Position numbers and translations under genes: made by a program. The notes beneath the pieces were generated by a model. The model made no database searches, was not told the DNA's origin, and saw only the letters and a program-made list of their open reading frames with translations. This document shows positions 28,536 through 53,660 of a stretch of DNA of 64,000 nucleotides, piece after piece. The stretch comes from Escherichia coli (lineage in GTDB: Bacteria > Pseudomonadota > Gammaproteobacteria > Enterobacterales > Enterobacteriaceae), in the NCBI RefSeq assembly GCF_003790525.1, contig NZ_CP033635.1. One strand, given 5' to 3'. How positions within the stretch are numbered: position 1 is the stretch's first letter; each line of letters begins with the position of its first letter.

Positions 28536-29255
28536 GTGAAAGGTTTAATCGGTGTGCTCGGTGGAATGGGGCCGGCCGCCACTGTCGACTTATTTAATAA
28601 ATTTGTCACCTTTACAGCAGCACAACGAGATCAAGAACATATACCTTTAATTATTTCTTCTATCCCGGATATTCCTGACCGTACCGATGCATTAATGCAT
28701 AACGGGCTCTCGCCTTTACCCGTTATGCGTGACTATATGCATAAACTGGAAGATGCAGGAGCAGAATGTATTGTTATTCCCTGTAATACCGCACACTATT
28801 GGTTTAAAGAACTAAAAGATGCTTGCCATATTGATATACTAAGTATCATAGATACTACGGTCGATGAAGTTCGCGTCTGTGGTAAAACTAGAATTGGCCT
28901 CCTGGCCACTGATGCCACGCTGTATATGGGATTATACCAGAAAGGAATTGAATCGTTAGGGTTTAACTATATCACCCCGGATGCAGATGGCCAAAAAAAT
29001 GTGATGAAAAGCATTTATTCACTTAAAGCGGGAAATGTTACACATGCGCAAAAATTGATGGAAGAGCAGGCTGAAAATTTATTTTCCCGCGGAGCAGAGA
29101 TCTTGATTCTTGGTTGTACGGAAATTCCCATTATTCTGTCACAAGCCGTTAAAGATCAACCTTTACGCTATATTGATTCAACCGCTTCACTCGTTCGCGC
29201 AGGAATAAAATGGTATGAAAATCGTATCGGAAAAGATCAACATTTAACTCAATAA
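28536..29255 (+). CDS. Asp/Glu racemase superfamily protein (aspartate racemase YgeA-like)
   Basis: 239 aa; GGMGP and CNTAH..GCTE motifs resembling the Asp/Glu/hydantoin racemase family (paired catalytic Cys region). Confidence 0.75.
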   Translation: MKGLIGVLGGMGPAATVDLFNKFVTFTAAQRDQEHIPLIISSIPDIPDRTDALMHNGLSPLPVMRDYMHKLEDAGAECIVIPCNTAHYWFKELKDACHIDILSIIDTTVDEVRVCGKTRIGLLATDATLYMGLYQKGIESLGFNYITPDADGQKNVMKSIYSLKAGNVTHAQKLMEEQAENLFSRGAEILILGCTEIPIILSQAVKDQPLRYIDSTASLVRAGIKWYENRIGKDQHLTQ

Positions 29256-29313
29256 TTCTAAATCACAGCCAGAAAGTTATTTTACAAAGATTATATTTAC
29301 AACGGAGAACATC

Positions 29314-30612
29314 ATGGTTTGGCTGGAAATTATCGTTGTACTTGGCGCAATATTTTTTGGTATTCGTCAGGGAGGAATCGGCATTGGTTTATGCGGCGGT
29401 CTTGGCCTTGCGATCCTGACTCTGGGATTTGGTCTGCCTATGGGATCACCGCCAGTCGATGTGATCCTGATTATTATGACCGTAGTTGTGGCAGCTTCAG
29501 CCTTACAGGCGGCAGGTGGGATGGATTATCTGGTACGTTTAGCCAGTAATTTCATGCGACGTAACCCAAAATATATCAACATAATCGCACCGATTATCAC
29601 TTGGTTAATGACCATTATGGCCGGTACCGGGTTTATTGTTTTCTCCACACTGCCGGTAATTGCTGAAGTAGCAAAAGAGTCCGGTATCCGGCCTTCCCGC
29701 ACACTCGCTGGCTCAGTTGTCGCCTCACAGGTTGCAATTTCTGGCTCACCAATCAGTGCCGCAATGGCAGCTATGCTCACTATTATGGAGGTTAATGGCG
29801 TCAGTTTTATTCAGGTGATGTCGGTATGCCTTCCCACCTCTTTTGTCGCCGCGATGGTTGCTGCTTTTATCGCCTCCCGACAGGGGTGTGAATTACAAGA
29901 TGACGAAGTATATCTTGAACGTCTGCAAAAAGGTCTGGTGCAAAAATACGAGAATAATAACAGCATCAAACCTGGTGCAACGCTTTCCGTCGGATTATTC
30001 ATGCTGGCGACGATCGCCATTGTTATTCTTGCTGCATTCCCCCAATTGCGTCCGGGTTTTGATATCAGCAAACCGATGGAAACGCGCGATATTATTATTA
30101 TTTGCATGCTCTCTGCTGCCTGCCTGATGGTAATACTGTGTAAGATGTCTACTGATGACATTATTCTGACCTCCACATTTCGTGCTGGAATGAGTTCGCT
30201 GGCAGTGATTCTTGGTATTGTAACCTTAGGTACCACCTTTATTGATGCGCATTTAACTGAGATCAAAGATATCGCTGGTGATATTTTACAAACTTATCCG
30301 ATGCTTTTAGCATTAGTTCTTTTTTTTACCTGCGCTTTACTTTACTCACAGGGAGCGACTACGCCGTTAATTATTCCTCTGGCTGTAGCACTCAACATAC
30401 CAACCTGGGCAATTCTTGCATCTTATGTTGCCGTTACGGGAGTATTCGTGCTTCCAACGTATCCAACATCACTCGCCGCGATGGAATTTGATACTACCGG
30501 CACAACCCGTGTGGGCAATTATTTATTAAATCACCCATTTATGCTACCCGGGTTGGGTGGTGTTATTGCAGGAGTGACATTTGGGTTTGTGATTGCACCA
30601 ATGATGGTCTGA
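29314..30612 (+). CDS. Dcu-family anaerobic C4-dicarboxylate transporter (second, divergent paralog)
   Basis: 432 aa; same family blocks as 258-1592 (NPKYI, LPTYPTSLAA, EFDTTGTTRVGN) but a clearly different sequence. Confidence 0.85.
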   Translation: MVWLEIIVVLGAIFFGIRQGGIGIGLCGGLGLAILTLGFGLPMGSPPVDVILIIMTVVVAASALQAAGGMDYLVRLASNFMRRNPKYINIIAPIITWLMTIMAGTGFIVFSTLPVIAEVAKESGIRPSRTLAGSVVASQVAISGSPISAAMAAMLTIMEVNGVSFIQVMSVCLPTSFVAAMVAAFIASRQGCELQDDEVYLERLQKGLVQKYENNNSIKPGATLSVGLFMLATIAIVILAAFPQLRPGFDISKPMETRDIIIICMLSAACLMVILCKMSTDDIILTSTFRAGMSSLAVILGIVTLGTTFIDAHLTEIKDIAGDILQTYPMLLALVLFFTCALLYSQGATTPLIIPLAVALNIPTWAILASYVAVTGVFVLPTYPTSLAAMEFDTTGTTRVGNYLLNHPFMLPGLGGVIAGVTFGFVIAPMMV

Positions 30613-30834
30613 TAGAATCATAATTTTCATTCTTTATGGAAGTAGTTACAGAGTTACTATTTGATAATTAGTCAGGCAGTTAATCTGCATTCAGTTACTG
30701 ACTGTCAGAAGAATTCTGACAGATTGATATCACATGTTATTTCAATGATGTAAGAATTCAAATTCCGAGAGCATAGCTCCGGTTAAACAATTTGTTATTG
30801 TCACATTGTTTTCAAATAATGGAGTTAGAATATT

Positions 30835-32235
30835 ATGTCTCGTATTGAAAGCGATTTCCTTGGTGAGCGTGAAATTCCGGATGATTGCTATTATGGTGTT
30901 CAGACACTTCGTGGAAAAGATAATTTCCATATCACTGAAATGCCAATGAGTCAGGAGCCTTTCTTCATCATTGCCTTCGGTTATGTGAAAAAAGCAGCTG
31001 CGATGGCTAATAAGGAGTTAGGTACAATTCCTGCTGATGTTGCGGATGCTTTAATCTGGGCTTGCGACCAATTAATTGATGGTAAGTACCGGGAACAGTT
31101 TGTGACCGACTGGCTTCAGGGGGGAGCCGGAACGTCAACCAATATGAACTGCAATGAAGTGATTTGTAATCTTGCTGCAGAAAAACTTGGTAGCGTTAAA
31201 GGGGATTACAAACGCGTTTCGCCAAACGACCATGCTAATTTTGGTCAGTCCACCAATGATACATATCCGACAGCATTACATCTGGCATTGCTGCTGCGAA
31301 GCAATGTATTGCTTGAAGCTGTTGAACACCTCGTAGGAGCATTCTACAAAAAGGCTGACGAGTTCAGCACAGTGCTCAAGATGGGACGTACTCACCTGCA
31401 GGATGCAGTGCCAATGACTCTCGGCCAGGAGTTCCATGGCTGGGGTTTTACAATTAATGATGAAATTCGGGTCATCCGTAATGCACAGGAACACCTGCGG
31501 GTTGTAAACCTTGGTGCTACTGCGATTGGTACCTGTGTTACCGCTCACCCGGATTATCCCGCTTTAGCCGTGAAATATCTGGCCCAGATCACAGGCATTA
31601 ATTTCAGGAACAGTGAAGATCTCATCGCTGCCACAAGCGACTGTGGTGCATATGTTGCACTCAGTTCGGCCATGAAGAGCCTCTCTGTGAAGCTTACCAA
31701 GGTTTGTAATGACATTCGACTGCTTGCTTCAGGCCCCCGTTGCGGCCTGGCTGAAATTAACCTGCCTCAATTGCAACCGGGTTCTTCCATTATGCCTGGT
31801 AAGGTTAACCCCGTTATCCCGGAAGTAACAAACCAGTCTTGCTTCCTGGTTCAGGGGCTGGACACCACAGTGATGCTGGCGGCATCTGCTGGTCAGCTTG
31901 AGCTTAACGTTATGGAGCCGGTCATCACCTTTGCGCTGTTCACCTCACTCAAGGTGATGACGAATGCCTGTAACACACTCCGAACTAAATGCATTGATGG
32001 CATTACAGCTAATTCCGATCGAACTGCAGAGATGGTAATGCATTCCTGCGGTATTGTGACTCTCCTGAAGCCACATCTGGGATATAAGGTGTGTTCTGAA
32101 ATGGCGCACGAAGCATACCATACAGGCAAATCCCTCCATCAGATAGTGGTTGTCGAACGTAAGCTACTCACACAGGAAGAATGGGAGAAGACATTCAATC
32201 TGGATAATCTGATTGCTCCGAAGTTCGAACAATAA
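30835..32235 (+). CDS. aspartate ammonia-lyase / class II fumarase family protein (copy B)
   Basis: 466 aa, differs from copy A at about 2 residues (V14I, E28K); about 50 bp of upstream sequence is also shared. Confidence 0.88.
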   Translation: MSRIESDFLGEREIPDDCYYGVQTLRGKDNFHITEMPMSQEPFFIIAFGYVKKAAAMANKELGTIPADVADALIWACDQLIDGKYREQFVTDWLQGGAGTSTNMNCNEVICNLAAEKLGSVKGDYKRVSPNDHANFGQSTNDTYPTALHLALLLRSNVLLEAVEHLVGAFYKKADEFSTVLKMGRTHLQDAVPMTLGQEFHGWGFTINDEIRVIRNAQEHLRVVNLGATAIGTCVTAHPDYPALAVKYLAQITGINFRNSEDLIAATSDCGAYVALSSAMKSLSVKLTKVCNDIRLLASGPRCGLAEINLPQLQPGSSIMPGKVNPVIPEVTNQSCFLVQGLDTTVMLAASAGQLELNVMEPVITFALFTSLKVMTNACNTLRTKCIDGITANSDRTAEMVMHSCGIVTLLKPHLGYKVCSEMAHEAYHTGKSLHQIVVVERKLLTQEEWEKTFNLDNLIAPKFEQ

Positions 32236-37859: not shown

Positions 37860-38200
37860 TCAATTAATACCCCGCCGTTAAATCATCCACCAAGCGCGAG
37901 TCGGATGCGCCGTACAACTCACCATCCGACCCAACCATAATGCTTTGCGTGCTGCCCATCGCCTCATTCAGCGCCACTTTCTGACCTTTTGCTTCCAGCA
38001 GCTTGAGCGTATCCGGACTAAACCCTTTTCAACACGCAGCTCGTCCGGCAACCACTGATGGTGGAAACGAGGCGCATTGGTCGCTTCGGCAACATTCATT
38101 CCACAATTGATGCTGTTCACCACCATTTGCGGCACGGTAGTGATGATCCAGCTACCGGTAACAAAGTGAGTACATAAAGGCCATACTGTCACGAACAGTG
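37860..38200 (-). pseudogene. ggt: gamma-glutamyltranspeptidase 3' fragment (C-terminal about 110 codons only, frameshifted)
   Basis: minus-strand translation MNVAEATNAPRFHHQWLPDELRVEKG then FSPDTLKLLEAKGQKVALNEAMGSTQSIMVGSDGELYGASDSRLVDDLTAG matches the Ggt C-terminus as recalled; no upstream part. Confidence 0.75.
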
Positions 38201-38475: not shown

Positions 38476-39855
38476 TTAGGTTTTCAGAATACGGTAGAAC
38501 TCGAGTACCAGTTGCTGCGCTATTTTCAACTCCGGTTCTTTTTCACACATCAGACTAATAAATCGGAAAGCATAATTTTCTCCACCCCTGATTATTCTCC
38601 AGGGCATCAACCAGCGGCTTACCCGGGACACTGAAGGAAGTCTTGCGGCAGTAGTAACCGGTGGGATCCAGCCTTTATGCCATTTGGCAACAGCATCCCT
38701 GACGATGGTTTCACTGCCTGTAACCCCCCTGGCCACCATTTCCCGCCATATCCGGCCGGAGTTATAATTACCACATTCTCGTTGCTCTTTTAACCACTCC
38801 CTCCATGGGTCCAGAAGCCCTCGCTTTGGAGGCCTGGTTGACATTTCAGGGAATGTTCCTGAACCCACCCAGCGACTGACTGTCACTCGCGACAGGCCTG
38901 TAATACGGGATATTTCCCTGAAACTACATCCCTTGTTATGCAGGGCCATAACCTCTGTCCAACGCTGATGCCGTTTTTTGCGGATGTGCTGTTTAAGGCG
39001 TTCCAGACGACGGAGCGATGCTACAGGCACAGATATTTCTGGCTCAGGTGATTTCTTCAGTGATAACTCTCTGACAACAAGACGTATCAGAGGCATATGT
39101 CTGTACATCATTCGTTCAGGCTCATCACCAATATTTTTTAGCAGGTGCCATCGATCGGCCACCTGTCTGGCCTGAGGTGCACCTTCACGTGCTGCTGTCG
39201 CATAGACTCCACTGCGATCACGCGAGACAACCTGTATTTCCGGATATTTTCTGAACCAGGTCGCCAGCGTACGCTGATCACGGCCGGGAAGCAGGACGAG
39301 GGGACGGTGAGTATCAGGATTGACTATTAACATACCGCAGCAGTGGCCCCGATGCCACGCCCACTCATCAATACCGACATGAGGCGCGCCTGACTGTTTC
39401 GTCTCCGGGGTATTGATAAGCCTGCGAAGAAGAGTATCAGCACTGCAACGGAGACCCACTGCCGTTGCAGCCCGTTTTCCAGCCTCACCTCCAGCTATTA
39501 ATCCCAGTTGACATTGTTAATTTTGTAACGCCTGTGAAGACTGCTGGTGTGAACTGGCGAAGGGAGCAAGCGACTCGGCAAAAATTTTACGTGAACAAGC
39601 CGGGTTACGGCAGTACCAGTGGCGGACGGAAAATACAAGCCATAGCGTCTGCCCTGAGCAGGGTAGATGCTGTATCCGGCGCCGACGACAACTATGAACA
39701 GAGTCGCTACGCTTAAAGCATTCAGGACATTGTGCTGTTTTGCGTTTTCCGTGGAGATGGAGGGTTATACCGTCAGAGCTAATAATTTGTCGACTGCATC
39801 GCCATCCGCAAGGTAACTGTAGAAGTGTCTTAAGAGAGTGCATTGCGTTGCCCAT
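38476..39855 (-). pseudogene. transposase with ISL3-like zinc-finger and DDE signatures, frameshifted (39517-39855 N-terminal part; 38476-39459 C-terminal part)
   Basis: N-terminal CPECF..YCRNPACSRKIFAE zinc ribbon; GIDEWAWHRGH..VVSRDRSGVYA..QVADRWHLLKN DDE region; domain order atypical, family assignment tentative. Confidence 0.5.
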
Positions 39856-40138
39856 AACTTAAAACAGCTTAGATCCTTGTTCGCCAGAAAGTTTCATCCA
39901 TTTTCTTCCACCCAGGTTGCGGAAGAACCACTTTTCATCCGTCGTTGACAGATGTGAAGTATGCGGGAGAAAAAGTGAATATCTAACTGTAATAACTCAG
40001 ACCGGTACGAGTACTCGGGACGTCTACAATCATTCAGGGCAAAGTGCTAAAATTTCTCTATCCCGGGATGCCCCTACCAACGCAGCACTCCCGGAGATAT
40101 CATTACAGCTCTGCAACTGATTTCCGCGACTGAACCGC

Positions 40139-40546
40139 TCAGTTCCTATCCTTCCAGTTGCCCTCCTGCCCCCCCTCCCTGCTGTATACCCCGGTACCAC
40201 AACTCGGGCAGCACTTTTCCCCCTCATAATTTTCGTCACACATCACACAAAACCACTTTCTCACCTTCACCGTATAATCCGGAACCGTCATACCCTGCAG
40301 ATGCAAACGACGGGCCTCTTTCTCTGCCGGGTCAAGCCAGGTGCATCGCAGCAGGATTTTCTCAGCGACAGTCATCTGGTCATGTTCAAACCACGGTGGT
40401 TGTCCGTCATTGCCCCGCTGAAGTGTTAACGGGCATCCACAGGACACACAGCACAAAACGTCCTGGCGGTTGTGCTTCGCTGCTTCTTTCGCCGTAACAA
40501 AATGGCCTTTGCTGTCATTCGCCATATAACAGTTCAGAATTCGCAT
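40139..40546 (-). CDS. zinc-ribbon hypothetical protein (paralog 2; motifs CxxC..PWFEH..CxxC)
   Basis: paralogous to the adjacent upstream ORF; two Cys pairs flanking a conserved WFEH motif; start taken at MRILN. Confidence 0.5.
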   Translation of the reverse strand: MRILNCYMANDSKGHFVTAKEAAKHNRQDVLCCVSCGCPLTLQRGNDGQPPWFEHDQMTVAEKILLRCTWLDPAEKEARRLHLQGMTVPDYTVKVRKWFCVMCDENYEGEKCCPSCGTGVYSREGGQEGNWKDRN

Positions 40547-40941
40547 ATTTCCTCCTGAGTTGTCCGGGGAATACTGAATCCTCCGGTCTGGCAGTGTGTG
40601 CAGTACCGCTCCCCATAATAATCGTGGTGACATTGTCTGCAGTGCCAGCTGGCTTTACGCACCACGGGTAAGGCATCCGGTACGAATTGCTGCAGACGTT
40701 TAATCAACTGTATTTCTCTGCGCTCCGGCCTGACATAAGGGCACTGTTGACCGTGCTCTGTCAGCCTGTCGTCAGTGTGTTCAAACCAGGGAAGTTCAGT
40801 GTCGTATTGCGGATGGTATCTGAGTGCACTGCCACACAAGTGGCAGGTGTAGTTAGCATAAGGTGCGGCCTGTGCAGTACGGGCGCCCGTCAGACGTCCG
40901 TTGCCATCAAGAGCGATAAAGGATTTTGCGTACATAGTCAT
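40534..40941 (-). CDS. zinc-ribbon hypothetical protein (paralog 1; motifs CxxC..PWFEH..CxxC)
   Basis: 135 aa; CHLCG..PWFEHTDD..CRQCHHDYYGERYCTHCQ. Confidence 0.5.
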   Translation of the reverse strand: MTMYAKSFIALDGNGRLTGARTAQAAPYANYTCHLCGSALRYHPQYDTELPWFEHTDDRLTEHGQQCPYVRPERREIQLIKRLQQFVPDALPVVRKASWHCRQCHHDYYGERYCTHCQTGGFSIPRTTQEEICEF

Positions 40942-41194
40942 ATTCCTCAGCCGCCAGACGACACGCAGGCAACAGCCGTCCCGGTACGGGCAGCGTGGTC
41001 AGGGTGTGAATGGCGGTTCAGTTAAAATCTGGACTGGAGTTTGGGTAAAGCAGGCTGGTTGCTGTTACAGCACTGTGGTTGTCACACAATGGAACACTGA
41101 CGTAAAAAACAGTCAGTGGGCGAGTGGATACATCGTTGCCGCCAGACAACAACCCATACTTTTGGTTTGCCGGGTATTGGCGCGCCAGTCGTGC

Positions 41195-41764
41195 TCAACT
41201 CCGGCTACAGCCAAAATTGCGCTCACCGGTGCAGTGAGCTTTGGTATGTTCCTTCGCCAGATAGTCAGCACGTTCCAGCACCTGCTGAAAGCCAGTGTCA
41301 TCATCGCGTTCCAGCCACACCGCCGGCCAGGCCGGAAAATGCACCAGCGTGGCATGGCACCCGACATCCACTCCCAGGGCACTGCACCACGCCTGTTTAA
41401 TCATCCCGGCCAGTGATCCCGGAGCACGGTAATCACCGGCACGACACCAGGTATCCCGGTTAACCAGCAGCATCAGGTGATAGTGTTTTTTACCTTTGCA
41501 CTCCCCAAACTCCCGGGCCCAGACGTAATGCAGGGTTGTGGGATGCACGCGTTTACCTTCCCGATGCTTACGTTTCTGGTAAGCGTCGATTCGGGCTTTC
41601 AGGGCATTGATGAAGCGGGATATCACAGCTGCGTCCGTTGCTGCCGGTACATCCGGGAAACGCAGGTCAACCCGCAATGCCGTCAGGCGGGGATGAACAT
41701 TCAGTGCGTGCCGCACCGTCTCACGAATACGTTGCTGCCAGAAGGGGTTGTATTTGTAGGTCAT
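41195..41764 (-). CDS. YagK/YfjJ-family (inovirus Gp2-like) protein, putative
   Basis: 189 aa from MTYKYNPFW with GGAG RBS; family assignment from context and pattern (HYHLMLLVN), tentative. Confidence 0.45.
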   Translation of the reverse strand: MTYKYNPFWQQRIRETVRHALNVHPRLTALRVDLRFPDVPAATDAAVISRFINALKARIDAYQKRKHREGKRVHPTTLHYVWAREFGECKGKKHYHLMLLVNRDTWCRAGDYRAPGSLAGMIKQAWCSALGVDVGCHATLVHFPAWPAVWLERDDDTGFQQVLERADYLAKEHTKAHCTGERNFGCSRS

Positions 41765-41960
41765 GGTTAAATCTCCGTATGGTTCATACGGAATAGCCAC
41801 GTCGTAAAAAATGCGCAGAGTCCCTGAAGTGACCTCCGGCAGGACACTGTCTCAGGCACTCTGTGATAACCCGAACGGTCGTCTCCGGACTGACGGTTGA
41901 ATTTTCAGCGTTGTTTTTTTAATGTAAAAAACCGGTTACGGGTAAGGCTGTGAGGAGGGA

Positions 41961-42164
41961 GTGATGGTGATACGCAAAAAGAAGTGCAGGGACTGTGGAA
42001 ACGCGATTACTCATAATACAGTGTGTTGCCCGTATTGTGGTTCTGTCGACCCCTTCGGCTATTACCGGAATACAGACCGTATCGTTACCATACTGCTGGC
42101 ACTGATTATTGTGGTCCTGCTGACTACTGTCAGCGTCAGTGTGTATATACTGTGTAGCTGGTGA
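41961..42164 (+). CDS. small zinc-ribbon membrane protein (CxxC..CxxC plus one TM helix), hypothetical
   Basis: 67 aa; KKCRDCGNAITHNTVCCPYCG followed by hydrophobic segment ILLALIIVVLLTTVSV. Confidence 0.4.
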   Translation: MMVIRKKKCRDCGNAITHNTVCCPYCGSVDPFGYYRNTDRIVTILLALIIVVLLTTVSVSVYILCSW

Positions 42165-43117
42165 GATAACGGTTCATGTATCCCCTGAGCTGACAGTGTA
42201 CCGGGTATATTAAGCGTAACCGACAGGTTCTCCTTCATACCATATTAAATTTTTCCAGGTATTGCCGCTGCCTTATTTCGTCCCATACAGGAAAACTCGT
42301 CTGGGTTTCTGACAAATACGCGAAACTCACAGCCCCTCAATATCAACCACACGCTGTAAGCCGGTAATACCTGAAAATCAGCCTATTACCGCCCGCGCCT
42401 CCGTTACCGAACGCTCAGGTGACCAGACTGAAGCCCAGCACGCACTCGTAAAATTTGCGGTCAGTTCCGTCAGTCAGTGGGCAACCGCAGAGTTACGGGC
42501 TTCCAGGTCCACAGGAGTGAGTCTATAACGCGTGTGGGAAATCATTTTTTCTGGCGTTGACAGAACGCCTTACGGGCTGCTACTTACCCGGTGTCCCGCA
42601 ATACAGCCTTAGTGTTCCGTTATCGGGGATCCGGACGCACCGCAACAACCGGGGAAGTATTTCTGGTTAGAGCTGTGTCAAGAGGGATTTCTCAGCCCCT
42701 CACTCACCGGCTCAGTCTCAGGGCAGAAGCATTAATACACTCAGTTCATGTCTTATACAGGAATGGGCATAGGGGGAGCTGGCGTGTCACTGCTGATTTT
42801 ACGCATCAGCGTTCATGTATCTGCACTCTGATACAGAATGCTTCACAGCGCTCTGTTACCGGAGAGATTTACTCTCTTAGGTTATTCTGGCAAATCCTTT
42901 ACGTTACTCTCTGATGACTTCTTATATTTATAATACCAATCAGACAACCTTATCCCATCGGTGATATCAGTCTCCTGCTCGCCAGGAACGGGCTGACTCA
43001 CTGTAACCACCTCCGAAAACAACTCTGCAATTATCAGAACGCCTGCTTCTCTCCCTGTCCTCACGAAAACTATCCCCTCTTTATCGCGCGTGCGTGCGGA
43101 AGCATCTTTTCGCAACA

Positions 43118-43130
43118 CCCCCCCCCCCCC
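43118..43130. repeat. homopolymeric C13 tract about 165 bp upstream of alpA
   Basis: 13 consecutive C residues seen directly. Confidence 0.8.
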
Positions 43131-43294
43131 GGGATTCCGCTACGGCTCTGCCATCGCAATCCCCCCGTTTATCTCCGGACAGCCACATTCCCGATTATTT
43201 TTTACGTTTCTCCCCGGTTGTTATGCCGGTGAAGGTGGCGCGCTGTTTTCATGACCACACCGGCTGGTTTAACAACATCCGGAGGAACATTCTC

Positions 43295-43501
43295 ATGGCT
43301 ACCCCAGTTTCGCTGATGGATGACCAGATGGTCGACATGGCGTTTATCACTCAACTGACCGGCCTAACCGATAAGTGGTTTGACAAACTCATCAAAGATG
43401 GGGGCTTTCCTGCGCCCATCAAAATGGGGCGCAGCTCCCGCTGGCTGAAAAGTGAAGTGGAAGCCTGGCTGCAGGCGCGTATTGCACAGTCCCGTCCGTA
43501 A
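43295..43501 (+). CDS. alpA: AlpA-family prophage transcriptional regulator (HTH)
   Basis: GGAGGA RBS; 68 aa; FITQLTGLTDKWFDKLIKDGGFPAPIKMGRSSRWLKSEVEAWL typical of AlpA. Confidence 0.8.
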   Translation: MATPVSLMDDQMVDMAFITQLTGLTDKWFDKLIKDGGFPAPIKMGRSSRWLKSEVEAWLQARIAQSRP

Positions 43502-43579
43502 TTTTTAACCACTAACCCTTCGCCCACAGCAGACGCAATCTCCGGCCTGCCGGCGGCGCTCTGCTGCCTGTTATCCCCC

Positions 43580-44197
43580 GTGAGGAATATGAAAATGAAA
43601 CAACAGTATCAGACCCGTTACGAGCTGCTCCATGAAAACTACCAGAAATGGCTGACCGGCTTCACCCGGCACGCCGTATCATGGGGCGTGTGTCATCCGA
43701 ATATCTACTATTTCCATAATCTGACGCCCGGGTGGGTGTCATTCAATGGCGAAAAACCGGAGATTGCCATCGTTCCCCAGAGTCTGCACCGGCTGATTTA
43801 TGGTCCGGACAAACGGAGCTCCCCGTCCCTGGATGATGATCTGGTGGTGAATTTATGCACCAGCGAACACCTGCTGGTTCATCATCCGATGCTGGAAGGG
43901 ATCCTGCTGTCTGAATGTGAGCGCCTGAAGCAACATTCTCTGGCAAACAAACTGATCAGCCTCTTCCGTCAGTTTGGCGGCACGGAGTTACGTCTCAAAC
44001 TGGTCTGGCTCTGCTGGCTTGACTTAATGACCGGAAACAGCCTTGACGACTGGACGAAAAACCTGAAACACAAATCAGAAAAAGATCTGGAGCAATGGAT
44101 CATTGCACGTCAGGGTCAGAGTGAACCACTGACAAATCTGATGGATCAGTACGTGCTTATGGCATACCGTACATCGGTTGATGCCGCTCACAGTTGA
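43580..44197 (+). CDS. hypothetical protein (CP4-island backbone, unknown function)
   Basis: 205-aa ORF downstream of alpA; no recognisable motif. Confidence 0.5.
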   Translation: MRNMKMKQQYQTRYELLHENYQKWLTGFTRHAVSWGVCHPNIYYFHNLTPGWVSFNGEKPEIAIVPQSLHRLIYGPDKRSSPSLDDDLVVNLCTSEHLLVHHPMLEGILLSECERLKQHSLANKLISLFRQFGGTELRLKLVWLCWLDLMTGNSLDDWTKNLKHKSEKDLEQWIIARQGQSEPLTNLMDQYVLMAYRTSVDAAHS

Positions 44198-44739
44198 TGT
44201 CTGAGAACCACAGGGCTGGCAGCAGAAAACCAGCCCTGTGGTAAAATACAGTAATAGCGGCGTACATCAGGCACGCCGCTCACTCGTCCACAGATCATAT
44301 ACGTCATTATACTGCGCGATAACGGAGGGCTTCAGCACCCGGTCATTTCTGAGCGGGTATGAATACCATTGATGATGCGAAGCAGCCACGTGCAGAAACG
44401 TTCTTCACAACCAGGTGCCTCCATCTTCACTGCAGTCTGAATGTGCCGGCTTGTTATCCACCAGAAATGGTATGCTCCGGTACATGCATACCCCGGAGAC
44501 TATAAACGCACTGAATCATAGCCTCCCACCTCAGCAGGAGGCAGTCAGCTTTCAGGCGGAAAAACGTTGCAGTTAAAGATCGTGAGAATCGCTGTTTCGT
44601 TGCATAGCAACCCGAACAGTTGTAGTGAAACATTTTACCTGCATCAGCACATGGTCAGGCGCCGTCTGTATGGCGTGGAATACTGATGTTTCGGCTGATG
44701 GCAAGCCTCATTCTGTACTGACCCCAAAAAGTTGGACAG

Positions 44740-45591
44740 TTAAACACGAGGCATATAGGTCTGATTCCGATATTCAATTGGAGTCAGACTTTTTAATTTC
44801 AGGCTAATTCTTCTGCTGTTGTAGTATTCAATATATTCCGTAACAGCATCCTTCAGTTCGCTTATATTACTGAACTCATCAAGATAAAAACACTCCGACT
44901 TTAAGGTTCCAAAGAAACACTCCACCACAGCATTATCCAGACAATTGCCTTTTCTGGACATGCTTTGTTTAATACCATGTTCTTTAAGAATATTTTGATA
45001 TTTTCTCATACGATACTGCCATCCCTGGTCAGAGTGCAGAACAGGATGCTCGTGAGGATTAAGCTTTTTGAATGCCTGATCGAGCATATTCTCAACCATG
45101 TTCATCACTGGTCTTTCCGAAAGGCTGTAAGAAATAACTTCGTTGTTGAAGAGATCTATTACTGGAGACAAATACAGCTTGCGCCCATTGACTGCAAATT
45201 CAGTAACATCGGTAACCCACTTCTCGTTTGGCCGCGTAGCCTTGAAATCTCTTTGGAGAACATTAGGGGCGGTTTGCCCTACCTCTCCTCTGTAAGAGCG
45301 GTATCGCTTGACCTTAATCGCTGCTTTAAGTGAGAGGGTTCCCATCAGGCGCTGAACAGCTTTATGGTTAATCTGTTTCCCTTCTCGATGAAGAGACAGC
45401 GTTACCCTACGGTATCCGTATCGGCCTCTATTCTCGTGATAAATCTCACCAATACGCTTTTTAACGTCCGCATACTTGTCAGGCTTGCTGAGAGCCTTTA
45501 GATGGTAATAAAACGTACTGCGCGGTATCTCCGCAGCCCTGAGAAGCTCATCAAGAGGATAAAACTGCCTTAGCTCGTTGAGTACTTTCAC
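44740..45591 (-). CDS. insK: IS150 transposase OrfB (DDE domain)
   Basis: 283 aa; DDE blocks; overlaps orfA end as in IS150. Confidence 0.9.
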
Positions 45592-49188: not shown

Positions 49189-49271
49189 TTTCAGACAGAT
49201 ATTATTTCCGTGAATCCCCCGCCACCTTTCCGGTGCGCGGGGTTTTGTCTTTTTTCACCGGGAATACATGT

Positions 49272-50144
49272 ATGAATCCGTCTGATGCCATTGAGGCAAT
49301 TGAAAAACCGCTCTCCTCCCTGCCTTACTCACTTTCCCGTCACATCCTGGAACATCTGCGCAAACTCACCAGTCACGAACCCGTGCCTGGCATTATGGGT
49401 AAAAGCGGGGCCGGTAAATCCTCACTCTGTAATGCGCTGTTTCAGGGGGAGATCACCCCGGTCAGTGATGTTCACGCCGGCACCCGGGAAGTGCAGCGCT
49501 TCCGTCTGAATGGCCATGGTCACAGCATGGTTATCACTGACCTGCCCGGGGTGGGCGAGAGCCGGGACAGGGATGCAGAGTATGAAGCCCTGTACCGTGA
49601 CATTCTGCCCGAACTGGACCTGGTACTGTGGCTGATTAAAGCCGATGACCGTGCCCTGTCTGTGGATGAGTATTTCTGGCGACACATCCTGCACCGGGGA
49701 CATCAGCGGGTACTGTTTGTGGTGATGCAGGCCGATAAAACGGAGCCCTGCCATGAATGGGATATGGCCGGTATTCAGCCTTCTCCCGCACAGGCACAGA
49801 ACATTCGCGAAAAAACGGAGGCGGTATTCCGTCTGTTCCGGCCCGTACATCGGGTTGTTGCCGTATCGGCCCGCACCGGCTGGGAACTGGATACGCTGGT
49901 CAGTGCGCTCATGACAGCACTTCCCGACCATGCCGCCAGTCCCCTGATGACCCGCCTGCAGGACGAGCTGCGCACGGAATCTGTCCGCGCTCAGGCCCGT
50001 GAACAGTTTACCGGTGCGGTGGACCGGATATTTGACACGGCGGAGAGCGCCTGTATTGCCTCTGTTGCACGCACGGTTCTGCGTGCCGTCCGTGACTCGG
50101 TGGTCTCTGTTGCCCGCGCGGTATGGAACTGGATTTTCTTCTGA
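49272..50144 (+). CDS. YeeP/YfjP/YkfA-family small GTPase (50S-ribosome-binding GTPase fold)
   Basis: P-loop GIMGKSGAGKSS, DLPG (G3) and Mxxx ADK-like G4; start taken at MNPSDAIEAIEKP. Confidence 0.8.
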   Translation: MNPSDAIEAIEKPLSSLPYSLSRHILEHLRKLTSHEPVPGIMGKSGAGKSSLCNALFQGEITPVSDVHAGTREVQRFRLNGHGHSMVITDLPGVGESRDRDAEYEALYRDILPELDLVLWLIKADDRALSVDEYFWRHILHRGHQRVLFVVMQADKTEPCHEWDMAGIQPSPAQAQNIREKTEAVFRLFRPVHRVVAVSARTGWELDTLVSALMTALPDHAASPLMTRLQDELRTESVRAQAREQFTGAVDRIFDTAESACIASVARTVLRAVRDSVVSVARAVWNWIFF

Positions 50145-50260
50145 ACCCGGTGGTGATGTACCAGGCTGTTGTTACAGATTTTTAACTCCATGAAAACACT
50201 ATGCAAACGCAGCCATACCCGGGTTGTCCCCTTGCGTTGTGTTTCTCAAGTTAATAGAAT

Positions 50261-50305
50261 GCATCGATCGTTACTATCATATCGATCGTTATAAACGATC
50301 GTTTG
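50261..50305. promoter_or_regulatory. cluster of three GATC-containing palindromic repeats (ATCGATCGTTA x2, AAACGATCGTTT) upstream of the dynamin-like operon; candidate Dam/OxyR-type phase-variation switch
   Basis: GATC at 50266, 50284 and 50297 within 35 bp, embedded in direct/palindromic repeats; sits where the agn43 (flu) regulatory region lies in CP4-44. Confidence 0.5.
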
Positions 50306-50361
50306 TAGTAAATGACCTCCTCCGTGGTTGTCATGAAAATGCGTCTTAGGAAGGTTAAATA

Positions 50362-52758
50362 ATGCACGAAAAGAACATCGCCCTGCTTTGTGATGAAGCC
50401 GACCGACTTTTGCAACTGAACATTAATCTGCTCCGGCAAATGGTTGAGGAGCCAGATGTGTTATCTGACAGTAAGAACGAAAACAGACTGCTTTTTGATA
50501 AACAGAAAGCACTGAAAAGAATTGAGGAGCTGGAGGGCGAACAAATCAAAACCGCCCGCAGGGAGATGGTGCTGGCTGTTGTCGGCACGATGAAAGCAGG
50601 CAAATCAACCACCATCAACGCCATTGTGGGGCAGGAAATTCTGCCTAACCGTAACCGCCCCATGACCTCTGTACCGACGCTCATCCGCCACGTTCCCGGA
50701 AAAACTGAGCCGGTTCTCCATCTGGAACATATTCAGCCTGTCCGCAATTTATTAATCACACTGCAGGAAAAACTCGCCACCCCGGCAGGACAGCAGGTCG
50801 CACAGACCCTGCAGCAAACCGGGGATACCCGCGAACTGCTGGATATTCTGACGGATGATGGCTGGCTCAAAAATGAATACCACGGGGAGGAGGAAATCTT
50901 TACCGGACTGGCATCGTTAAACGATCTGGTTCGTCTTGCTGCGGCAATGGGGACTGAATTTCCTTTTGATGAATACGCAGAAGTGCAGAAACTGCCGGTG
51001 ATCGACGTGGAATTCAGCCATCTGGTGGGGATGGATGCATGCCAGGGAACACTCACACTGCTGGATACCCCCGGCCCTAATGAGGCCGGACAACCGCAGA
51101 TGGAAGTGATGATGCGGGATCAACTGCAGAAAGCCTCTGCGGTTCTGGCTGTGATGGATTACACCCAGATGAACTCAAAAGCGGATGAAGACGTCCGTAA
51201 AGAGCTTAATGCCATTGCTGACGTATCAGCCGGCCGCCTGTTTGTACTGGTCAATAAATTTGATGAGAAAGACCGCAATGGCGATGGGGCAGATGCCGTA
51301 CGCCAGAAAGTTCCGGCAATGCTGAACAGCGATGTGCTGCCCGCCTCCCGCGTTTATCCCGGATCCTCACGCCAGGCATACCTGGCTAACCGTGCGCTTC
51401 ATGAGTTACGGAAAAACGGAACCCTTCCTGTTGATGAAGCCTGGGTCGATGATTTTATCAGAGGTGCCTTCGGTTGCATGAAAAAAGAATACGTCTGTAA
51501 AGACAGTGAACTGGCAACTGAAGGGGCGACAGACCTGTGGGAAGGCTCACTTATCGATCAACTGATAACGGAAGTCATACAGAGCTCACATTCCAGAGCT
51601 GCGGCACTGGCGGTTGACTCTGCCGCCGCAAAACTGATGCAGAATGCAGAAAATATCAGTGAATACCTGTTGTTACGCCATCAGGGGCTACAGCAAAGCA
51701 TTCAGTCACTGCAGTCGCATATCACCAGCCTGCTTGCGGATATCCGGGAAATCGCGGACTGTCAGGAGCAGATGACCACTGATGTCAGAATGGCCATGGA
51801 GGAGATCGATACTAAAACCCGGGAATTACTGACGGGGGTCTGCACCTCACTGGAAGAGGAGCTGAATGACTATTTCAGAAGCGGTAAACGCAAAGAACAG
51901 CAAATGCTGGAGGAAGAAGACGCAGAACAACGAAGGTCTCAGTCCGGATTATGGGGGAAAATTTCTCAATGGTCCGGTATCAACAACCAGGGCCGGGAGG
52001 ATTACAGGAAACGAGATTTTGCCCCGGACAGCCCCGAAATAAAATTCAGTGATCGCAGGGAAGCCCTTGAACTGATGACGCAAATCGAATCGACCGTGAC
52101 CAGCCTGCACCGTGAGGCTGAAGCACAGTTCCGGCCTGAGCTGGAGAAAATCGTCAGCGGGATTGAAACAGGTTTTCGTGGCACGGCCCTGTACGCCACA
52201 GAAAACATTGCCGGTCGCATCAATGCCCGCCTGGAGGATGAGGGCTTTACCGTAAAAATCAGTTTTCCGGCAGTCAGCCAGTTACAGACCCGGCTCGCGG
52301 TAAAAATAAATCTGAGTGCGCTTATGGAGGAAAGAACGGAGACCGTCACCCGTCGCCGTCGGCAGAGTGGCGTATGGGGAACCGTTTGTCGATGGTTTGG
52401 CACCAGTGACCTGGGCTGGGAAAACTATGACGAGGATGTGAGTCGCAGCGTGATCAATATCAACAAGGTCAGAGAGGAAGTTATGTCACTGACCCGGGCA
52501 TATTTCGGGGAGCTGCAGGCATCCATTGAGCAGGATATTAACCAGCCCGTCCGCCAGGAAATCGATGCCTTTTTCTGCGCATTCAGGGAGAAAGTTGAAC
52601 AACTGCGTAACACGCTGATTCAGAGCTCTGAAGATCATAAACGCGATCAGCAGGCGCAGGAACGGCTTACCGGGCGACTTCAGGCATTAAATGAAAGGGT
52701 TCCTGAGCTCATTACTGACAGTAAGGCGCTGAGGGAAGAGCTGGAGACAATGCTGTGA
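50362..52758 (+). CDS. dynamin-like GTPase (bacterial dynamin-like protein; CrfC/YjdA paralog)
   Basis: 798 aa; AGGAAGG RBS; P-loop GTMKAGKST (G75-S82), G3 LLDTPGPNEAGQ, G4 VLVNKFDE; N-terminal 330 aa closely parallel K-12 YjdA/CrfC as recalled; long coiled-coil C-terminal half. Confidence 0.85.
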   Translation: MHEKNIALLCDEADRLLQLNINLLRQMVEEPDVLSDSKNENRLLFDKQKALKRIEELEGEQIKTARREMVLAVVGTMKAGKSTTINAIVGQEILPNRNRPMTSVPTLIRHVPGKTEPVLHLEHIQPVRNLLITLQEKLATPAGQQVAQTLQQTGDTRELLDILTDDGWLKNEYHGEEEIFTGLASLNDLVRLAAAMGTEFPFDEYAEVQKLPVIDVEFSHLVGMDACQGTLTLLDTPGPNEAGQPQMEVMMRDQLQKASAVLAVMDYTQMNSKADEDVRKELNAIADVSAGRLFVLVNKFDEKDRNGDGADAVRQKVPAMLNSDVLPASRVYPGSSRQAYLANRALHELRKNGTLPVDEAWVDDFIRGAFGCMKKEYVCKDSELATEGATDLWEGSLIDQLITEVIQSSHSRAAALAVDSAAAKLMQNAENISEYLLLRHQGLQQSIQSLQSHITSLLADIREIADCQEQMTTDVRMAMEEIDTKTRELLTGVCTSLEEELNDYFRSGKRKEQQMLEEEDAEQRRSQSGLWGKISQWSGINNQGREDYRKRDFAPDSPEIKFSDRREALELMTQIESTVTSLHREAEAQFRPELEKIVSGIETGFRGTALYATENIAGRINARLEDEGFTVKISFPAVSQLQTRLAVKINLSALMEERTETVTRRRRQSGVWGTVCRWFGTSDLGWENYDEDVSRSVININKVREEVMSLTRAYFGELQASIEQDINQPVRQEIDAFFCAFREKVEQLRNTLIQSSEDHKRDQQAQERLTGRLQALNERVPELITDSKALREELETML

Positions 52759-53660
52759 CTTCACCATTTATTCAACAAATTGCTGATAACCGGGTATGTC
52801 AGGTACTCACCTGTCTTCCTGAAAAATTTGTGGTTGATTTCGCAAACGGAATCGATGTTGCACAGGAGCATATCCGCACGGCCGGAGAGCGCACGTTCTT
52901 CCGGCGTTTAAAAGAGGGGCTGACCGGCGAAGGCGCTGCACGGCAGAATGCCATCAATGCGTCGCTTGCACAGGGCGTTGAGGCGTCCCTGCGCTGGCTG
53001 ACGGAGATGACAACGTCACTTGCCACCACAAACTACGCGATTACCCGGGTAAACGACAGGGTCAGTTCACTGGTCAGTGATACAGCCAGGCTGGCGCATT
53101 ATTCCGCAGATACGCGGGAGCAGTTACTCACCCTGGCCGATCAGGTTCACCATAAACTGAATCATCTTGAAGAAAAACTCCACCGTGTTGACCAGGTTCA
53201 GCGGGCGCAGTTACATCTTGAGCAGATATTCTCATGGTGGAGCGCCGGGCGATATGCGTCATTTTCCCCTGCCGGACGTTGTTATGTGGCACTTGAAGAG
53301 CTTCGCTGGGGCGCGTTTGGTGATGTGATACGTCAGAGCGAAACAGGCCAGGTTAACCAGCTACTGGATATTCTCAGACATAAAGCATTAACGCAGATGG
53401 CACAGGAGAGTGGCGGTAGTGCAACCGTGCGTCTGAACACTCTGGACTGGCTTGGTGGTCAGGGCCGGGAGCAGGCAGATAACGAGTGGCATGACGCGAT
53501 TAACTGGCTGGGAGACTGGTGCAGTGAAGAGCAGCATCCGGTGATCTGGTCAACCACGCAGGCTGCAGAACACTTACCGGTTCGCATGCCTCGCCTCTGC
53601 TCTGCAGAACGCCTCTCTGAAAGTATGGTCGATGAAATATTTCAGAAGGGGGCTGCATGA
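52755..53660 (+). CDS. YjcZ-like protein (partner of dynamin-like GTPase), unknown function
   Basis: 301 aa; GTG start overlapping upstream stop (GTGA); same gene order as yjdA-yjcZ in K-12. Confidence 0.6.
   Translation: MTSPFIQQIADNRVCQVLTCLPEKFVVDFANGIDVAQEHIRTAGERTFFRRLKEGLTGEGAARQNAINASLAQGVEASLRWLTEMTTSLATTNYAITRVNDRVSSLVSDTARLAHYSADTREQLLTLADQVHHKLNHLEEKLHRVDQVQRAQLHLEQIFSWWSAGRYASFSPAGRCYVALEELRWGAFGDVIRQSETGQVNQLLDILRHKALTQMAQESGGSATVRLNTLDWLGGQGREQADNEWHDAINWLGDWCSEEQHPVIWSTTQAAEHLPVRMPRLCSAERLSESMVDEIFQKGAA

What the first reader, a model, noticed from the sequence alone, without database searches (positions are those of the whole stretch)
40139..40941. Tandem paralogous zinc-ribbon proteins with a conserved PWFEH motif
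Two adjacent, slightly overlapping minus-strand ORFs encode about 135-aa proteins that each carry two CxxC pairs flanking a PWFEH motif. Tandem duplication with divergence in an island backbone next to a YagK/YfjJ-like gene is consistent with a phage-derived DNA-binding or regulatory pair of unknown function.
Basis: seen in the sequence. Interest (0 to 1): 0.35.

Follow-up and report, generated by a model that had tools for sequence, protein, structure and literature searches.

The report
Paired zinc-finger genes of genomic islands
Two small, overlapping, related zinc-binding protein genes sit in the conserved backbone of a mobile genomic island found in most E. coli; they belong to an already catalogued family whose function is unknown, so this copy is ordinary.

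Summary
Two minus-strand genes, zrU (40534-40935; the ORF runs to 40941) and zrD (40139-40546), overlap by 13 nt and encode 133/135-aa paralogs (31% identity, E=3e-15). Each has an N-terminal C-x2-C...PWFEH...C module (Pfam DUF7828) and a C-terminal four-cysteine ribbon (Pfam Zn_ribbon_11). They are not halves of a frameshifted gene, because single-gene relatives are the same size.

Both proteins are identical to RefSeq entries. The Gp2-zrU-zrD trio occurs in at least 3095 of 5426 complete E. coli genomes. The family is small and found only in Enterobacterales records (plus two MAGs labelled otherwise). It is essentially absent from phages. It lies next to AlpA and a YagK/YfjJ "inovirus Gp2" protein that carries all three HUH nuclease motifs. 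"Phage-derived" is therefore not supported; "island backbone" is.

Fold and sequence searches gave no functional homolog, only a weak CoiA N-domain resemblance.

New here:
- An ~85-nt leader upstream of zrU is the most conserved stretch of the locus.
- zrU is a derived, slowly evolving clade, while its zrD partner is swapped between lineages.

The likeliest role, which is inferred, is zinc-dependent nucleic-acid-binding regulators or accessories of the AlpA/HUH module. Interest is modest.

The parts
40534..40935 (-). zrU: upstream zinc protein, 133 aa (the ORF extends to the ATG at 40941). It matches RefSeq WP_000270974.1, 'putative zinc ribbon protein'.
   Evidence: DUF7828 at 107.5 bits and Zn_ribbon_11 at 38 bits. 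dN/dS is 0.12-0.22. Start chosen from SD spacing and cross-genus conservation.
40139..40546 (-). zrD: downstream paralog, 135 aa. It matches RefSeq WP_001221623.1, 'zinc-ribbon domain-containing protein'.
   Evidence: DUF7828 at 106.1 bits and Zn_ribbon_11 at 64.4 bits. dN/dS is 0.12-0.29.
40534..40546 (-). 13-nt overlap of the zrU stop and zrD start (ATGCGAATTCTGA). The zrD Shine-Dalgarno AGGAGG lies at 40551-40556 inside zrU, which suggests translational coupling.
   Evidence: Overlaps are conserved in 84 pairs: -13 nt in 56, -16 in 17, -19 in 5, -29 in 4.
40741..40845 (-). ZrU N-terminal zinc module: C31-x2-C34 (40834-40845), PWFEH49-53 (40777-40791) and C65 (40741-40743). The inferred ligand set is CCHC.
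   Evidence: These columns are invariant in alignments A1, A2 and A5. The role as zinc ligands is inferred, not shown.
40591..40641 (-). ZrU C-terminal four-cysteine ribbon: W97-x-C99-x2-C102-x3-Y-x-G-x3-C112-x2-C115.
   Evidence: Pfam Zn_ribbon_11. Invariant columns. The AF2 model shows three beta strands in this region.
40343..40450 (-). ZrD N-terminal zinc module: C33-x2-C36 (40439-40450), PWFEH51-55 (40382-40396) and C68 (40343-40345).
40199..40249 (-). ZrD C-terminal four-cysteine ribbon: C100-x2-C103...C113-x2-C116.
40936..41024 (-). Conserved non-coding leader directly upstream of zrU. Its core is 40956-40985 (ACCGGGACGGCTGTTGCCTGCGTGTCGTCT). It contains an inner hairpin, GCUGCCCG-UAC-CGGGaCGGC, and the zrU Shine-Dalgarno GAGGAA at 40943-40948.
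   Evidence: mean pairwise identity is 0.92-0.98 across 10 loci from at least eight named genera, higher than any coding stretch. In the 47-nt core, differences are 0.02-0.13 per site against synonymous 0.14-0.71 for the same locus pairs. All matches examined in a metagenome scan except one lie upstream of a U-type gene. There is one copy in the window. No Rfam match.
41195..41764 (-). YagK/YfjJ 'inovirus Gp2 family' gene, 189 aa, directly upstream on the same strand. It carries HUH-type motifs: RVDLRFP (41654-41674), HYHLMLLV (41462-41485) and YLAKEHTK (41240-41263).
   Evidence: Pfam YagK_YfjJ_C at 162.5 bits, weak REP_ORF2-G2P. Motifs seen. A promoter-like site lies at 41928-41901.
43298..43501 (+). 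AlpA-family regulator or excisionase-like gene of the same island core. In the window it is on the opposite strand.
   Evidence: Pfam Phage_AlpA at 25.3 bits, above the 21-bit cut-off. AlpA lies within 3 kb of Zr genes in 30 of 36 loci.
38476..39855 (-). ISL3-family transposase pseudogene 283 nt downstream of zrD. It marks the end of the conserved module in this copy.
   Evidence: annotated 'ISL3 family transposase, internal stop'.

Best explanation
SHOWN. zrU and zrD are two real, separately encoded paralogous genes under purifying selection. Their 13-nt overlap suggests translational coupling. Each protein has two conserved Cys/His clusters that fit two small zinc modules: an N-terminal C-x2-C...PWFEH...C module (DUF7828) and a C-terminal Cys4 ribbon (Zn_ribbon_11); zinc binding itself was not tested. 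They belong to the conserved backbone of an AlpA-type genomic island that resembles the integrase-bearing SRL pathogenicity island; P4-type integrases were seen only in related loci. In the loci with enough flank they usually lie within 3 kb of AlpA (30 of 36) and of a YagK/YfjJ 'Gp2' protein with intact HUH nuclease motifs (26 of 36). The ancestral state is a single gene. A duplication produced the slowly evolving upstream copy (zrU). zrU always carries an ultra-conserved ~85-nt leader abutting its ribosome-binding site.

INFERRED, as the most likely mechanism. The two proteins are zinc-dependent nucleic-acid-binding regulators or accessory factors of the island's AlpA/HUH core, which would control excision, replication or mobilisation. 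The leader is their cis target. It most probably acts at the RNA or translation-initiation level as an autoregulatory operator. Less probably it is a DNA hairpin site used by the HUH protein. ZrU would be the constant component and ZrD the exchangeable one.

The confidence value refers to the inferred mechanism. The shown part is near certain.
For: - Real paralogs with full-length family profiles; dN/dS 0.12-0.29.
- Conserved start/stop overlap in 84 pairs.
- Synteny across genera and in diverged single-gene relatives: Gp2-AlpA-Zr(-Zr). Of 36 loci with at least 3 kb of flank on each side, 26 have Gp2 and 30 have AlpA within 3 kb.
- Gp2 carries RCR/HUH motifs I-III.
- The leader is the most conserved segment of the locus. 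It keeps its position against the Shine-Dalgarno whichever gene lies upstream: Gp2, AlpA, a mini zinc ORF, or others.
- Several leader changes are wobble-preserving or compensatory on the sense strand.
- There is a weak, recurrent similarity of the N-domain to the CoiA N-terminal domain, found in 7 of 20 members with best E=6.9e-5. CoiA is a DNA-processing protein (PMC1189080).
Against: - There is no direct evidence of nucleic-acid binding.
- The proteins are near neutral, pI 5.2-9.2.
- No significant fold or sequence match to any characterised DNA- or RNA-binding protein was found.
- Covariation support for a leader RNA structure is inconclusive. The covariation score was reached by 45 of 500 shuffles, and a +3 slide control scored as well. 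RNAalifold keeps only the inner hairpin of the proposed structure.
- A linker-fusion AF2 run gave no confident ZrU-ZrD complex (pTM 0.30). ZrU at 83-94% identity pairs with ZrD lineages only 29-33% identical. Both argue against a co-evolved heterodimer.
Confidence: 0.4

Rival explanations
1. The proteins are zinc-finger transcription factors of the P2 Ogr / P4 Delta type. They would contact RNA polymerase and switch island or helper genes on, and would have nothing to do with the HUH protein.
For: They are small zinc proteins in AlpA-type (P4-like) islands. P4 Delta is itself a tandem duplication of an Ogr-like unit (own knowledge). The only, insignificant, PDB sequence hits are RNA polymerase zinc-ribbon subunits RPB9 and RPB12. 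Their near-neutral charge suits protein contacts.
Against: There is no Ogr_Delta Pfam hit at E<=1. The Cys spacing and two-domain architecture are different. The family is absent from phage and satellite collections.
Confidence: 0.15
2. The proteins are protein-binding zinc adaptors, for example inhibitors of a host or phage factor (counter-defence or defence modulation). ZrD would be the fast-changing specificity determinant.
For: ZrD lineages are swapped or highly divergent while ZrU stays constant. ZrD sits at the border with the variable cargo, which includes defence genes in related loci. Charge is neutral. No nucleic-acid-binding homolog was found.
Against: There is no PADLOC hit beyond E=0.035. 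Tight synteny with AlpA and Gp2, rather than with any defence system, persists in diverged relatives. dN/dS stays well below 1.
Confidence: 0.15
3. The pair is a toxin-antitoxin-like or addiction module: two small overlapping genes with an operator upstream, which stabilise the island.
For: The layout is an overlapping bicistron on mobile elements and plasmids with a conserved upstream element.
Against: The two products are paralogs of the same fold. Many relatives are single genes with no partner. Decayed zrD copies coexist with intact zrU. No PADLOC match.
Confidence: 0.05
4. The two ORFs are remnants of one larger frameshifted gene, or are non-functional debris.
For: They overlap out of frame. 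Some other loci do carry split zrD copies.
Against: Each ORF matches the full family profile end to end. Homologs are 126-140 aa. Purifying selection acts on both. The overlap is conserved in 84 pairs. The sequences are identical in many hundreds of genomes.
Confidence: 0.01

Closest known systems
Pfam DUF7828 (PF25165) + Zn_ribbon_11 (PF11682, formerly DUF3279); RefSeq 'putative zinc ribbon protein'
   Same: Both window proteins are full-length members. They are identical to WP_000270974.1 and WP_001221623.1.
   Different: Nothing differs, but the family has no assigned function. The full-text search of about 8 million papers found no mention of these family names.
N-terminal domain of competence protein CoiA (Pfam CoiA_N, PF25164) and DUF7830
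   Same: Both have a C-x2-C ... aromatic-x-H zinc-knuckle-like motif near the N-terminus. Sub-threshold hits occur in 7 of 20 family members.
   Different: Scores are below the Pfam cut-off (14.3 vs 26.3 bits). The Zr proteins lack the PD-(D/E)XK nuclease domain that defines CoiA (PMC1189080).
P2 Ogr / P4 Delta zinc-finger transcription activators
   Same: These are small Cys-rich zinc proteins of P4-like elements. Delta is a tandem duplication of the Ogr unit (own knowledge).
   Different: There is no sequence match. Cys spacing and domain structure differ. Here there are two separate genes rather than a fusion, and the family is not found in phages.
Zinc-finger DNA-binding modules that accompany HUH nucleases (IS91-type transposases, Helitron RepHel) and relaxosome accessory proteins next to oriT
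   Same: A minimal HUH protein (Gp2/YagK-YfjJ, motifs I-III) is encoded beside zinc-finger proteins and a conserved hairpin-containing element.
   Different: This is an analogy from own knowledge only. No homology, nicking site or transfer function was shown. The element keeps fixed spacing to the zrU ribosome-binding site, which fits a translational element better than a nick site.

Membership tests
Pfam DUF7828 (PF25165) | HMM score above the gathering cut-off of 25.7 bits over the whole 87-position model | tested here: met
   ZrD scores 106.1 bits (model positions 2-86 of 87). ZrU scores 107.5 bits (positions 1-87 of 87).
Pfam Zn_ribbon_11 (PF11682) | HMM score above 24 bits, plus four conserved cysteines in the pattern W-x-C-x2-C...C-x2-C | tested here: met
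   Scores are 64.4 and 38.0 bits. The Cys columns are invariant in A1 and A2.
CoiA (competence protein) N-terminal domain, PF25164 | HMM score above 26.3 bits | tested here: not met
   ZrD scores 14.3 bits (E=0.03). ZrU has no hit. Seven of 20 relatives give sub-threshold hits, best E=6.9e-5.
CoiA (competence protein) | A central PD-(D/E)XK nuclease domain | tested here: not met
   The proteins are 133-135 aa and fully covered by the two zinc modules. No nuclease family was hit.
Ogr/Delta zinc-finger activators (PF04606) | Pfam Ogr_Delta match and C-x2-C-x22-C-x4-C spacing | tested here: not met
   No hit at E<=1. The spacings here are C-x2-C-x18-H-x11-C and C-x2-C-x9-C-x2-C, read from the sequence.
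Phage protein families (PHROGs) / phage origin | Homologs in phage genomes or PHROG families | tested here: not met
   The best PHROG hit has E=0.03. No tblastn match in 50,697 phage records. Three IMG/VR loci.
Known anti-phage defence or toxin-antitoxin systems (PADLOC) | Match to a PADLOC model, and obligatory co-occurrence of the two genes | tested here: not met
   The best PADLOC hit has E=0.035. Single-gene loci exist.
Split or frameshifted single gene | Each ORF covers only part of the homologous full-length protein | tested here: not met
   Each ORF aligns to profile positions 1-128 or 1-130 of 131. Homologs are 126-140 aa.
HUH (rolling-circle Rep-like) endonucleases: applies to the neighbouring Gp2/YagK-YfjJ gene | Motif I, motif II (H-u-H) and motif III (Y-x-x-K) in order | tested here: met
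   RVDLRFP, HYHLMLLV and YLAKEHTK are present and conserved in type-1 Gp2 proteins. Pfam YagK_YfjJ_C scores 162.5 bits. REP_ORF2-G2P scores only 23.8 bits against a 27.8-bit cut-off. Catalysis is not testable here.
Rfam RNA families: applies to the leader upstream of zrU | Covariance-model match | tested here: not met
   No match at E<=1 in 39000-45000.
Structured cis-regulatory RNA: applies to the leader | Base pairs supported by covariation above controls | tested here: inconclusive
   90.6% of cells are paired. Six pairs have changes on both sides, against 2.2 +/- 1.2 in shuffles (reached by 1 of 500). But the covariation score was reached by 45 of 500 shuffles and equalled by the +3 slide control. 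RNAalifold keeps only the inner hairpin of the proposed structure.

The most novel reading that the evidence does not exclude
The ultra-conserved leader, ZrU/ZrD and the minimal HUH 'Gp2' protein together form a previously unrecognised nicking, replication or mobilisation module of AlpA-type (P4-like) genomic islands. It is present in more than half of complete E. coli genomes. The zinc proteins would be the site-recognition subunits: ZrU constant and ZrD exchangeable. The leader hairpin with its invariant 3' flank would be the origin- or oriT-like target. Alternatively the leader is a new class of autoregulatory RNA bound by zinc-ribbon proteins.
Probability: 0.15. Interest if true: 0.7.

Novelty: already known. 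Interest (0 to 1): 0.3.

Why it matters
The backbone genes of CP4/SRL-type islands (AlpA, YagK/YfjJ and these zinc proteins) are among the commonest uncharacterised genes in E. coli and its relatives. How such islands replicate, move or regulate themselves after excision is poorly understood; a recent preprint lists AlpA and Gp2-like genes as likely core functions of a related island class (10.1101/2024.08.29.610337). This copy adds nothing new on its own. However, three results give concrete handles for experiments on that question:
- the tight AlpA-HUH-Zr synteny;
- the asymmetric evolution of the pair;
- the leader element, which is more conserved than any coding stretch of the locus.

Tried and rejected
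- **Profile search of PDB sequences** gave nothing below E=0.3.
- **NCBIfam, PADLOC and PHROGs** gave no meaningful hit for either zinc protein.
- **Literature searches** for the family names, for YagK/YfjJ and for CoiA domain structure produced no functional data.
- **Heterodimer test.** AF2 on a ZrU-(G4S)6-ZrD fusion with 21 paired sequences gave pLDDT 58 and pTM 0.30, so no confident complex. This is an imperfect test.
- **Long-range RNA structure for the leader.** The MFE z-score is only -0.6. RNAalifold drops the outer stems. The covariation counts are inconclusive.
- **Leader as a sigma-70 promoter.** The only -35-like hexamer is not conserved. In some genera the leader is an ~117-nt intercistronic spacer directly after alpA.
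- **The search for related loci with the most diverse alignment (A2)** failed for lack of a conserved 7-10-column stretch.
- **Split-gene and toxin-antitoxin readings** were considered and rejected (see the rival explanations).

Full report
**1. Observation**

The two minus-strand ORFs exist at the stated coordinates.
- The upstream ORF runs 40534..40941. Its probable start is the second ATG at 40935, giving 133 aa. The GAGGAA Shine-Dalgarno (40943-40948) lies 7 nt from that ATG and only 1 nt from the first. Orthologs in other genera have only this start (MYAKSF...), and PGAP annotates it so.
- The downstream gene is 40139..40546 (135 aa, MRILNC...), with AGGAGG at 40551-40556.
- The two genes overlap by 13 nt.
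- BLASTP between the products gives 31% identity over 118 residues, E=3e-15.

- The N-terminal part has C-x2-C, then PWFEH, then a lone invariant Cys. In ZrU these are C31, C34, H53 and C65.
- The C-terminal part has W-x-C-x2-C-x3-Y-x-G-x3-C-x2-C.
- All these columns are invariant or nearly so across the family.

**2. What the proteins are**

Both proteins match Pfam DUF7828 (106-108 bits) followed by Zn_ribbon_11, formerly DUF3279 (64 and 38 bits). NCBIfam, PADLOC and PHROGs give nothing meaningful.

The window copies are identical to RefSeq WP_000270974.1 ('putative zinc ribbon protein') and WP_001221623.1 ('zinc-ribbon domain-containing protein').

A 2-kb query covering Gp2-zrU-zrD matches 3860 of 5426 complete E. 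coli genomes. In 3095 of them one match covers at least 80% of the query. The median is two places per genome.

The family is narrow.
- An exhaustive profile search of 1.84 billion representative proteins found 241 at E<=0.001, many of them fragments.
- Named relatives and the genome-scan loci are from Enterobacterales: Salmonella, Klebsiella, Citrobacter, Enterobacter, Hafnia, Serratia, Photorhabdus, Erwinia, Mixta and others. The exceptions are a few metagenome-derived records labelled Veillonella, Collinsella or Bacillota.

Both genes are under purifying selection. dN/dS is 0.12-0.29, while synonymous differences are 0.14-0.71 per site, mostly 0.44-0.71.

They are not a split gene. Each ORF aligns to the whole family profile, and diverged relatives that occur as single genes are 126-135 aa.

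**3. Structure**

AF2 on ZrU with a 14-sequence alignment gave pLDDT 76 and pTM 0.66. The model has two small beta-rich modules joined by helices.

No search found a significant relative:
- Foldseek against PDB, no E<=0.001.
- Foldseek against BFVD, no E<=0.001.
- A profile search of PDB sequences, nothing below E=0.3.

The weak hits are generic zinc ribbons: the rubrerythrin C-terminus, RPB9, RPB12 and eL43.

The only recurrent remote signal is sub-threshold similarity of the N-module to the CoiA N-terminal domain, seen in 7 of 20 members with best E=6.9e-5. CoiA is a PD-(D/E)XK DNA-processing protein (PMC1189080). The Zr proteins lack that nuclease domain, so this is only a lead about the zinc knuckle.

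The proteins are near neutral in charge, pI 5.2-9.2.

**4. Genomic context**

The window is an SRL-pathogenicity-island-like element. It carries the aspartate racemase and DcuA cargo described in PMC6980539 and an AlpA gene; no integrase of its own was identified here.

Directly upstream on the same strand lies a YagK/YfjJ 'inovirus Gp2 family' gene (41195-41764). It has all three rolling-circle/HUH motifs: RVDLRFP, HYHLMLLV and YLAKEHTK. An ISL3 transposase pseudogene lies 283 nt downstream of zrD.

In other genera and on large Klebsiella conjugative plasmids the module reads:

Gp2 - AlpA - (44-aa Zn_ribbon_11-like mini-ORF) - zrU - zrD - second Gp2 paralog lacking the HUH and Tyr motifs - DUF2913.

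Diverged family members keep the same neighbourhood, often as a single Zr gene after AlpA or Gp2 and close to a P4-type integrase. Of 36 loci with at least 3 kb on both sides, 26 have a Gp2-family ORF and 30 an AlpA ORF within 3 kb.

Phage origin is not supported. There is no tblastn hit in 50,697 phage records and only three loci in IMG/VR. A preprint on a related island class in Pseudomonas lists AlpA and a Gp2-like protein among likely core functions (10.1101/2024.08.29.610337).

**5. Evolution of the pair**

In a neighbour-joining tree, all first-position proteins (MYAKSF...) form one tight, derived clade. Second-position proteins fall among the diverse single-gene forms. So the ancestral state is one gene, and the duplication created a specialised upstream copy.

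Start/stop overlap is conserved in 84 pairs: -13 nt in 56, -16 in 17, -19 in 5 and -29 in 4. This suggests translational coupling.

The pairing is mosaic. ZrU proteins 83-94% identical to the window's copy are paired with ZrD lineages only 29-33% identical to the window's ZrD. Several genera also carry decayed zrD next to intact zrU.

An AF2 run on a linker fusion with 21 paired sequences gave no confident complex (pTM 0.30). Together these results argue against an obligate co-evolving heterodimer.

**6. The leader**

The ~85 nt immediately upstream of zrU (window 40936-41024) is the most conserved part of the whole locus.
- Mean pairwise identity is 0.92-0.98 at -50..-21 across 10 loci from at least eight named genera. 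Coding segments score 0.5-0.88.
- The 47-nt core differs at 0.02-0.13 per site. Synonymous sites differ at 0.14-0.71 and ZrU nonsynonymous sites at 0.13-0.27 for the same locus pairs.
- A pattern scan of metagenome contigs returned more than 120 matches. Of those examined, all but one chance hit lie directly upstream of a U-type gene.
- The window has a single copy, and Rfam has no match.
- The element keeps its position, 0-3 nt before the Shine-Dalgarno, whichever gene is upstream. In some genera it fills a short alpA-zrU spacer. That disfavours a promoter and favours a role at the translation-initiation region.

Evidence for an RNA structure is mixed.
- An inner hairpin, GCUGCCCG-UAC-CGGGaCGGC, has invariant stems and a free loop.
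- Several changes preserve G:U wobble pairs, and a few are compensatory.
- Formal support is inconclusive. Six pairs have double changes against 2.2 +/- 1.2 in shuffles. However, the covariation score was reached by 45 of 500 shuffles and matched by a slid control. The MFE z-score is -0.6.

**7. Mechanism**

What is shown: the pair is real, conserved, overlapping in a way that suggests translational coupling, zinc-motif-bearing, and part of the island backbone.

The function is inferred. I consider it most likely that these are zinc-dependent nucleic-acid-binding regulators or accessories of the AlpA/HUH core. The leader would be their cis target, probably as an autoregulatory translational operator. 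Less probably it is a hairpin site for the HUH protein, by analogy with zinc-finger partners of HUH enzymes and with oriT-adjacent accessory genes (own knowledge).

The rivals are Ogr/Delta-like RNAP-binding activators, protein-binding adaptors (counter-defence), and a toxin-antitoxin-like pair. A split pseudogene is refuted.

**8. Verdict**

The finding is accurate as an observation. It concerns a catalogued, very common, functionally unknown family, and this copy is an ordinary member.

The added value lies in three things: the synteny rule, the asymmetric evolution of the pair, and the ultra-conserved leader. These make the question experimentally tractable.

Noticed in passing
window 40936-41024 (-), core 40956-40985: An ~85-nt non-coding leader upstream of zrU is more conserved across genera than any coding stretch of the locus. 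It has no Rfam match and contains a hairpin with invariant stems and a variable loop. It may be a new cis-regulatory RNA or a protein or HUH target site.
   Followed up: partly
L002:7732-7866, L008:5731-5865, L009:5730-5867, L019:5732-5866, L033:3247-3405, L036:4903-5037: A 44-52-aa mini-ORF (MEKRRRTQPQAIPVRWTCPRCRRQYCGARPCPVCF...) recurs between alpA and the leader. It carries only the Zn_ribbon_11-like W-x-C-x2-C...C-x2-C motif. It is absent from the window.
   Followed up: partly
window 41961-42164 (+): A 67-aa ORF (annotated hypothetical, WP_001297900.1) with C-x2-C...C-x2-C followed by a hydrophobic, probably transmembrane, tail. It is divergently placed from the Gp2 gene. It gives only sub-threshold zinc-ribbon Pfam hits.
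   Followed up: partly
L002:8903-9469 and equivalents in L007-L012, L019: A second 'Gp2-type' paralog lies immediately downstream of zrD in the Klebsiella-type module. It has lost the HUH and YxxK motifs, so it is a likely inactive copy. DUF2913 follows it.
   Followed up: partly
Metagenome loci, e.g. L055, L075, L083, L089, L118 versus the window: Near-identical zrU genes (83-94% aa identity) are paired with zrD lineages only 29-33% identical (MNGIK... type). This implies cassette-like replacement of the downstream gene at the border with variable cargo.
   Followed up: partly
P0141 (238 aa, from the representative library): This protein looks like an N-module-only copy fused to a full-length family member. 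It may be a natural fusion or a merged gene call.
   Followed up: no
window 38476-39855 (-) and 37968-38192 (-): An ISL3-family transposase pseudogene and a gamma-glutamyltransferase fragment lie directly downstream of zrD. The conserved module appears to be cut here by an IS insertion.
   Followed up: no
window ~28536-32235 (+): An aspartate racemase, C4-dicarboxylate transporter and aspartate ammonia-lyase cluster. It resembles the orf8-orf9 D-aspartate utilisation genes described for the Shigella SRL pathogenicity island (PMC6980539).
   Followed up: partly
window ~49233-54727 (+): A run of four genes encoding a GTPase family protein, a dynamin family protein, an RdcB family protein and a patatin-like phospholipase, as annotated in the near-identical SMS-3-5 region. 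It is possibly a defence-like or membrane-remodelling cargo of the island.
   Followed up: no
window 43580-44197 (+) and homologs in L005-L007, L020: A 205-aa conserved hypothetical protein directly after alpA has no Pfam match. In several genera it travels with the AlpA-Zr module.
   Followed up: partly
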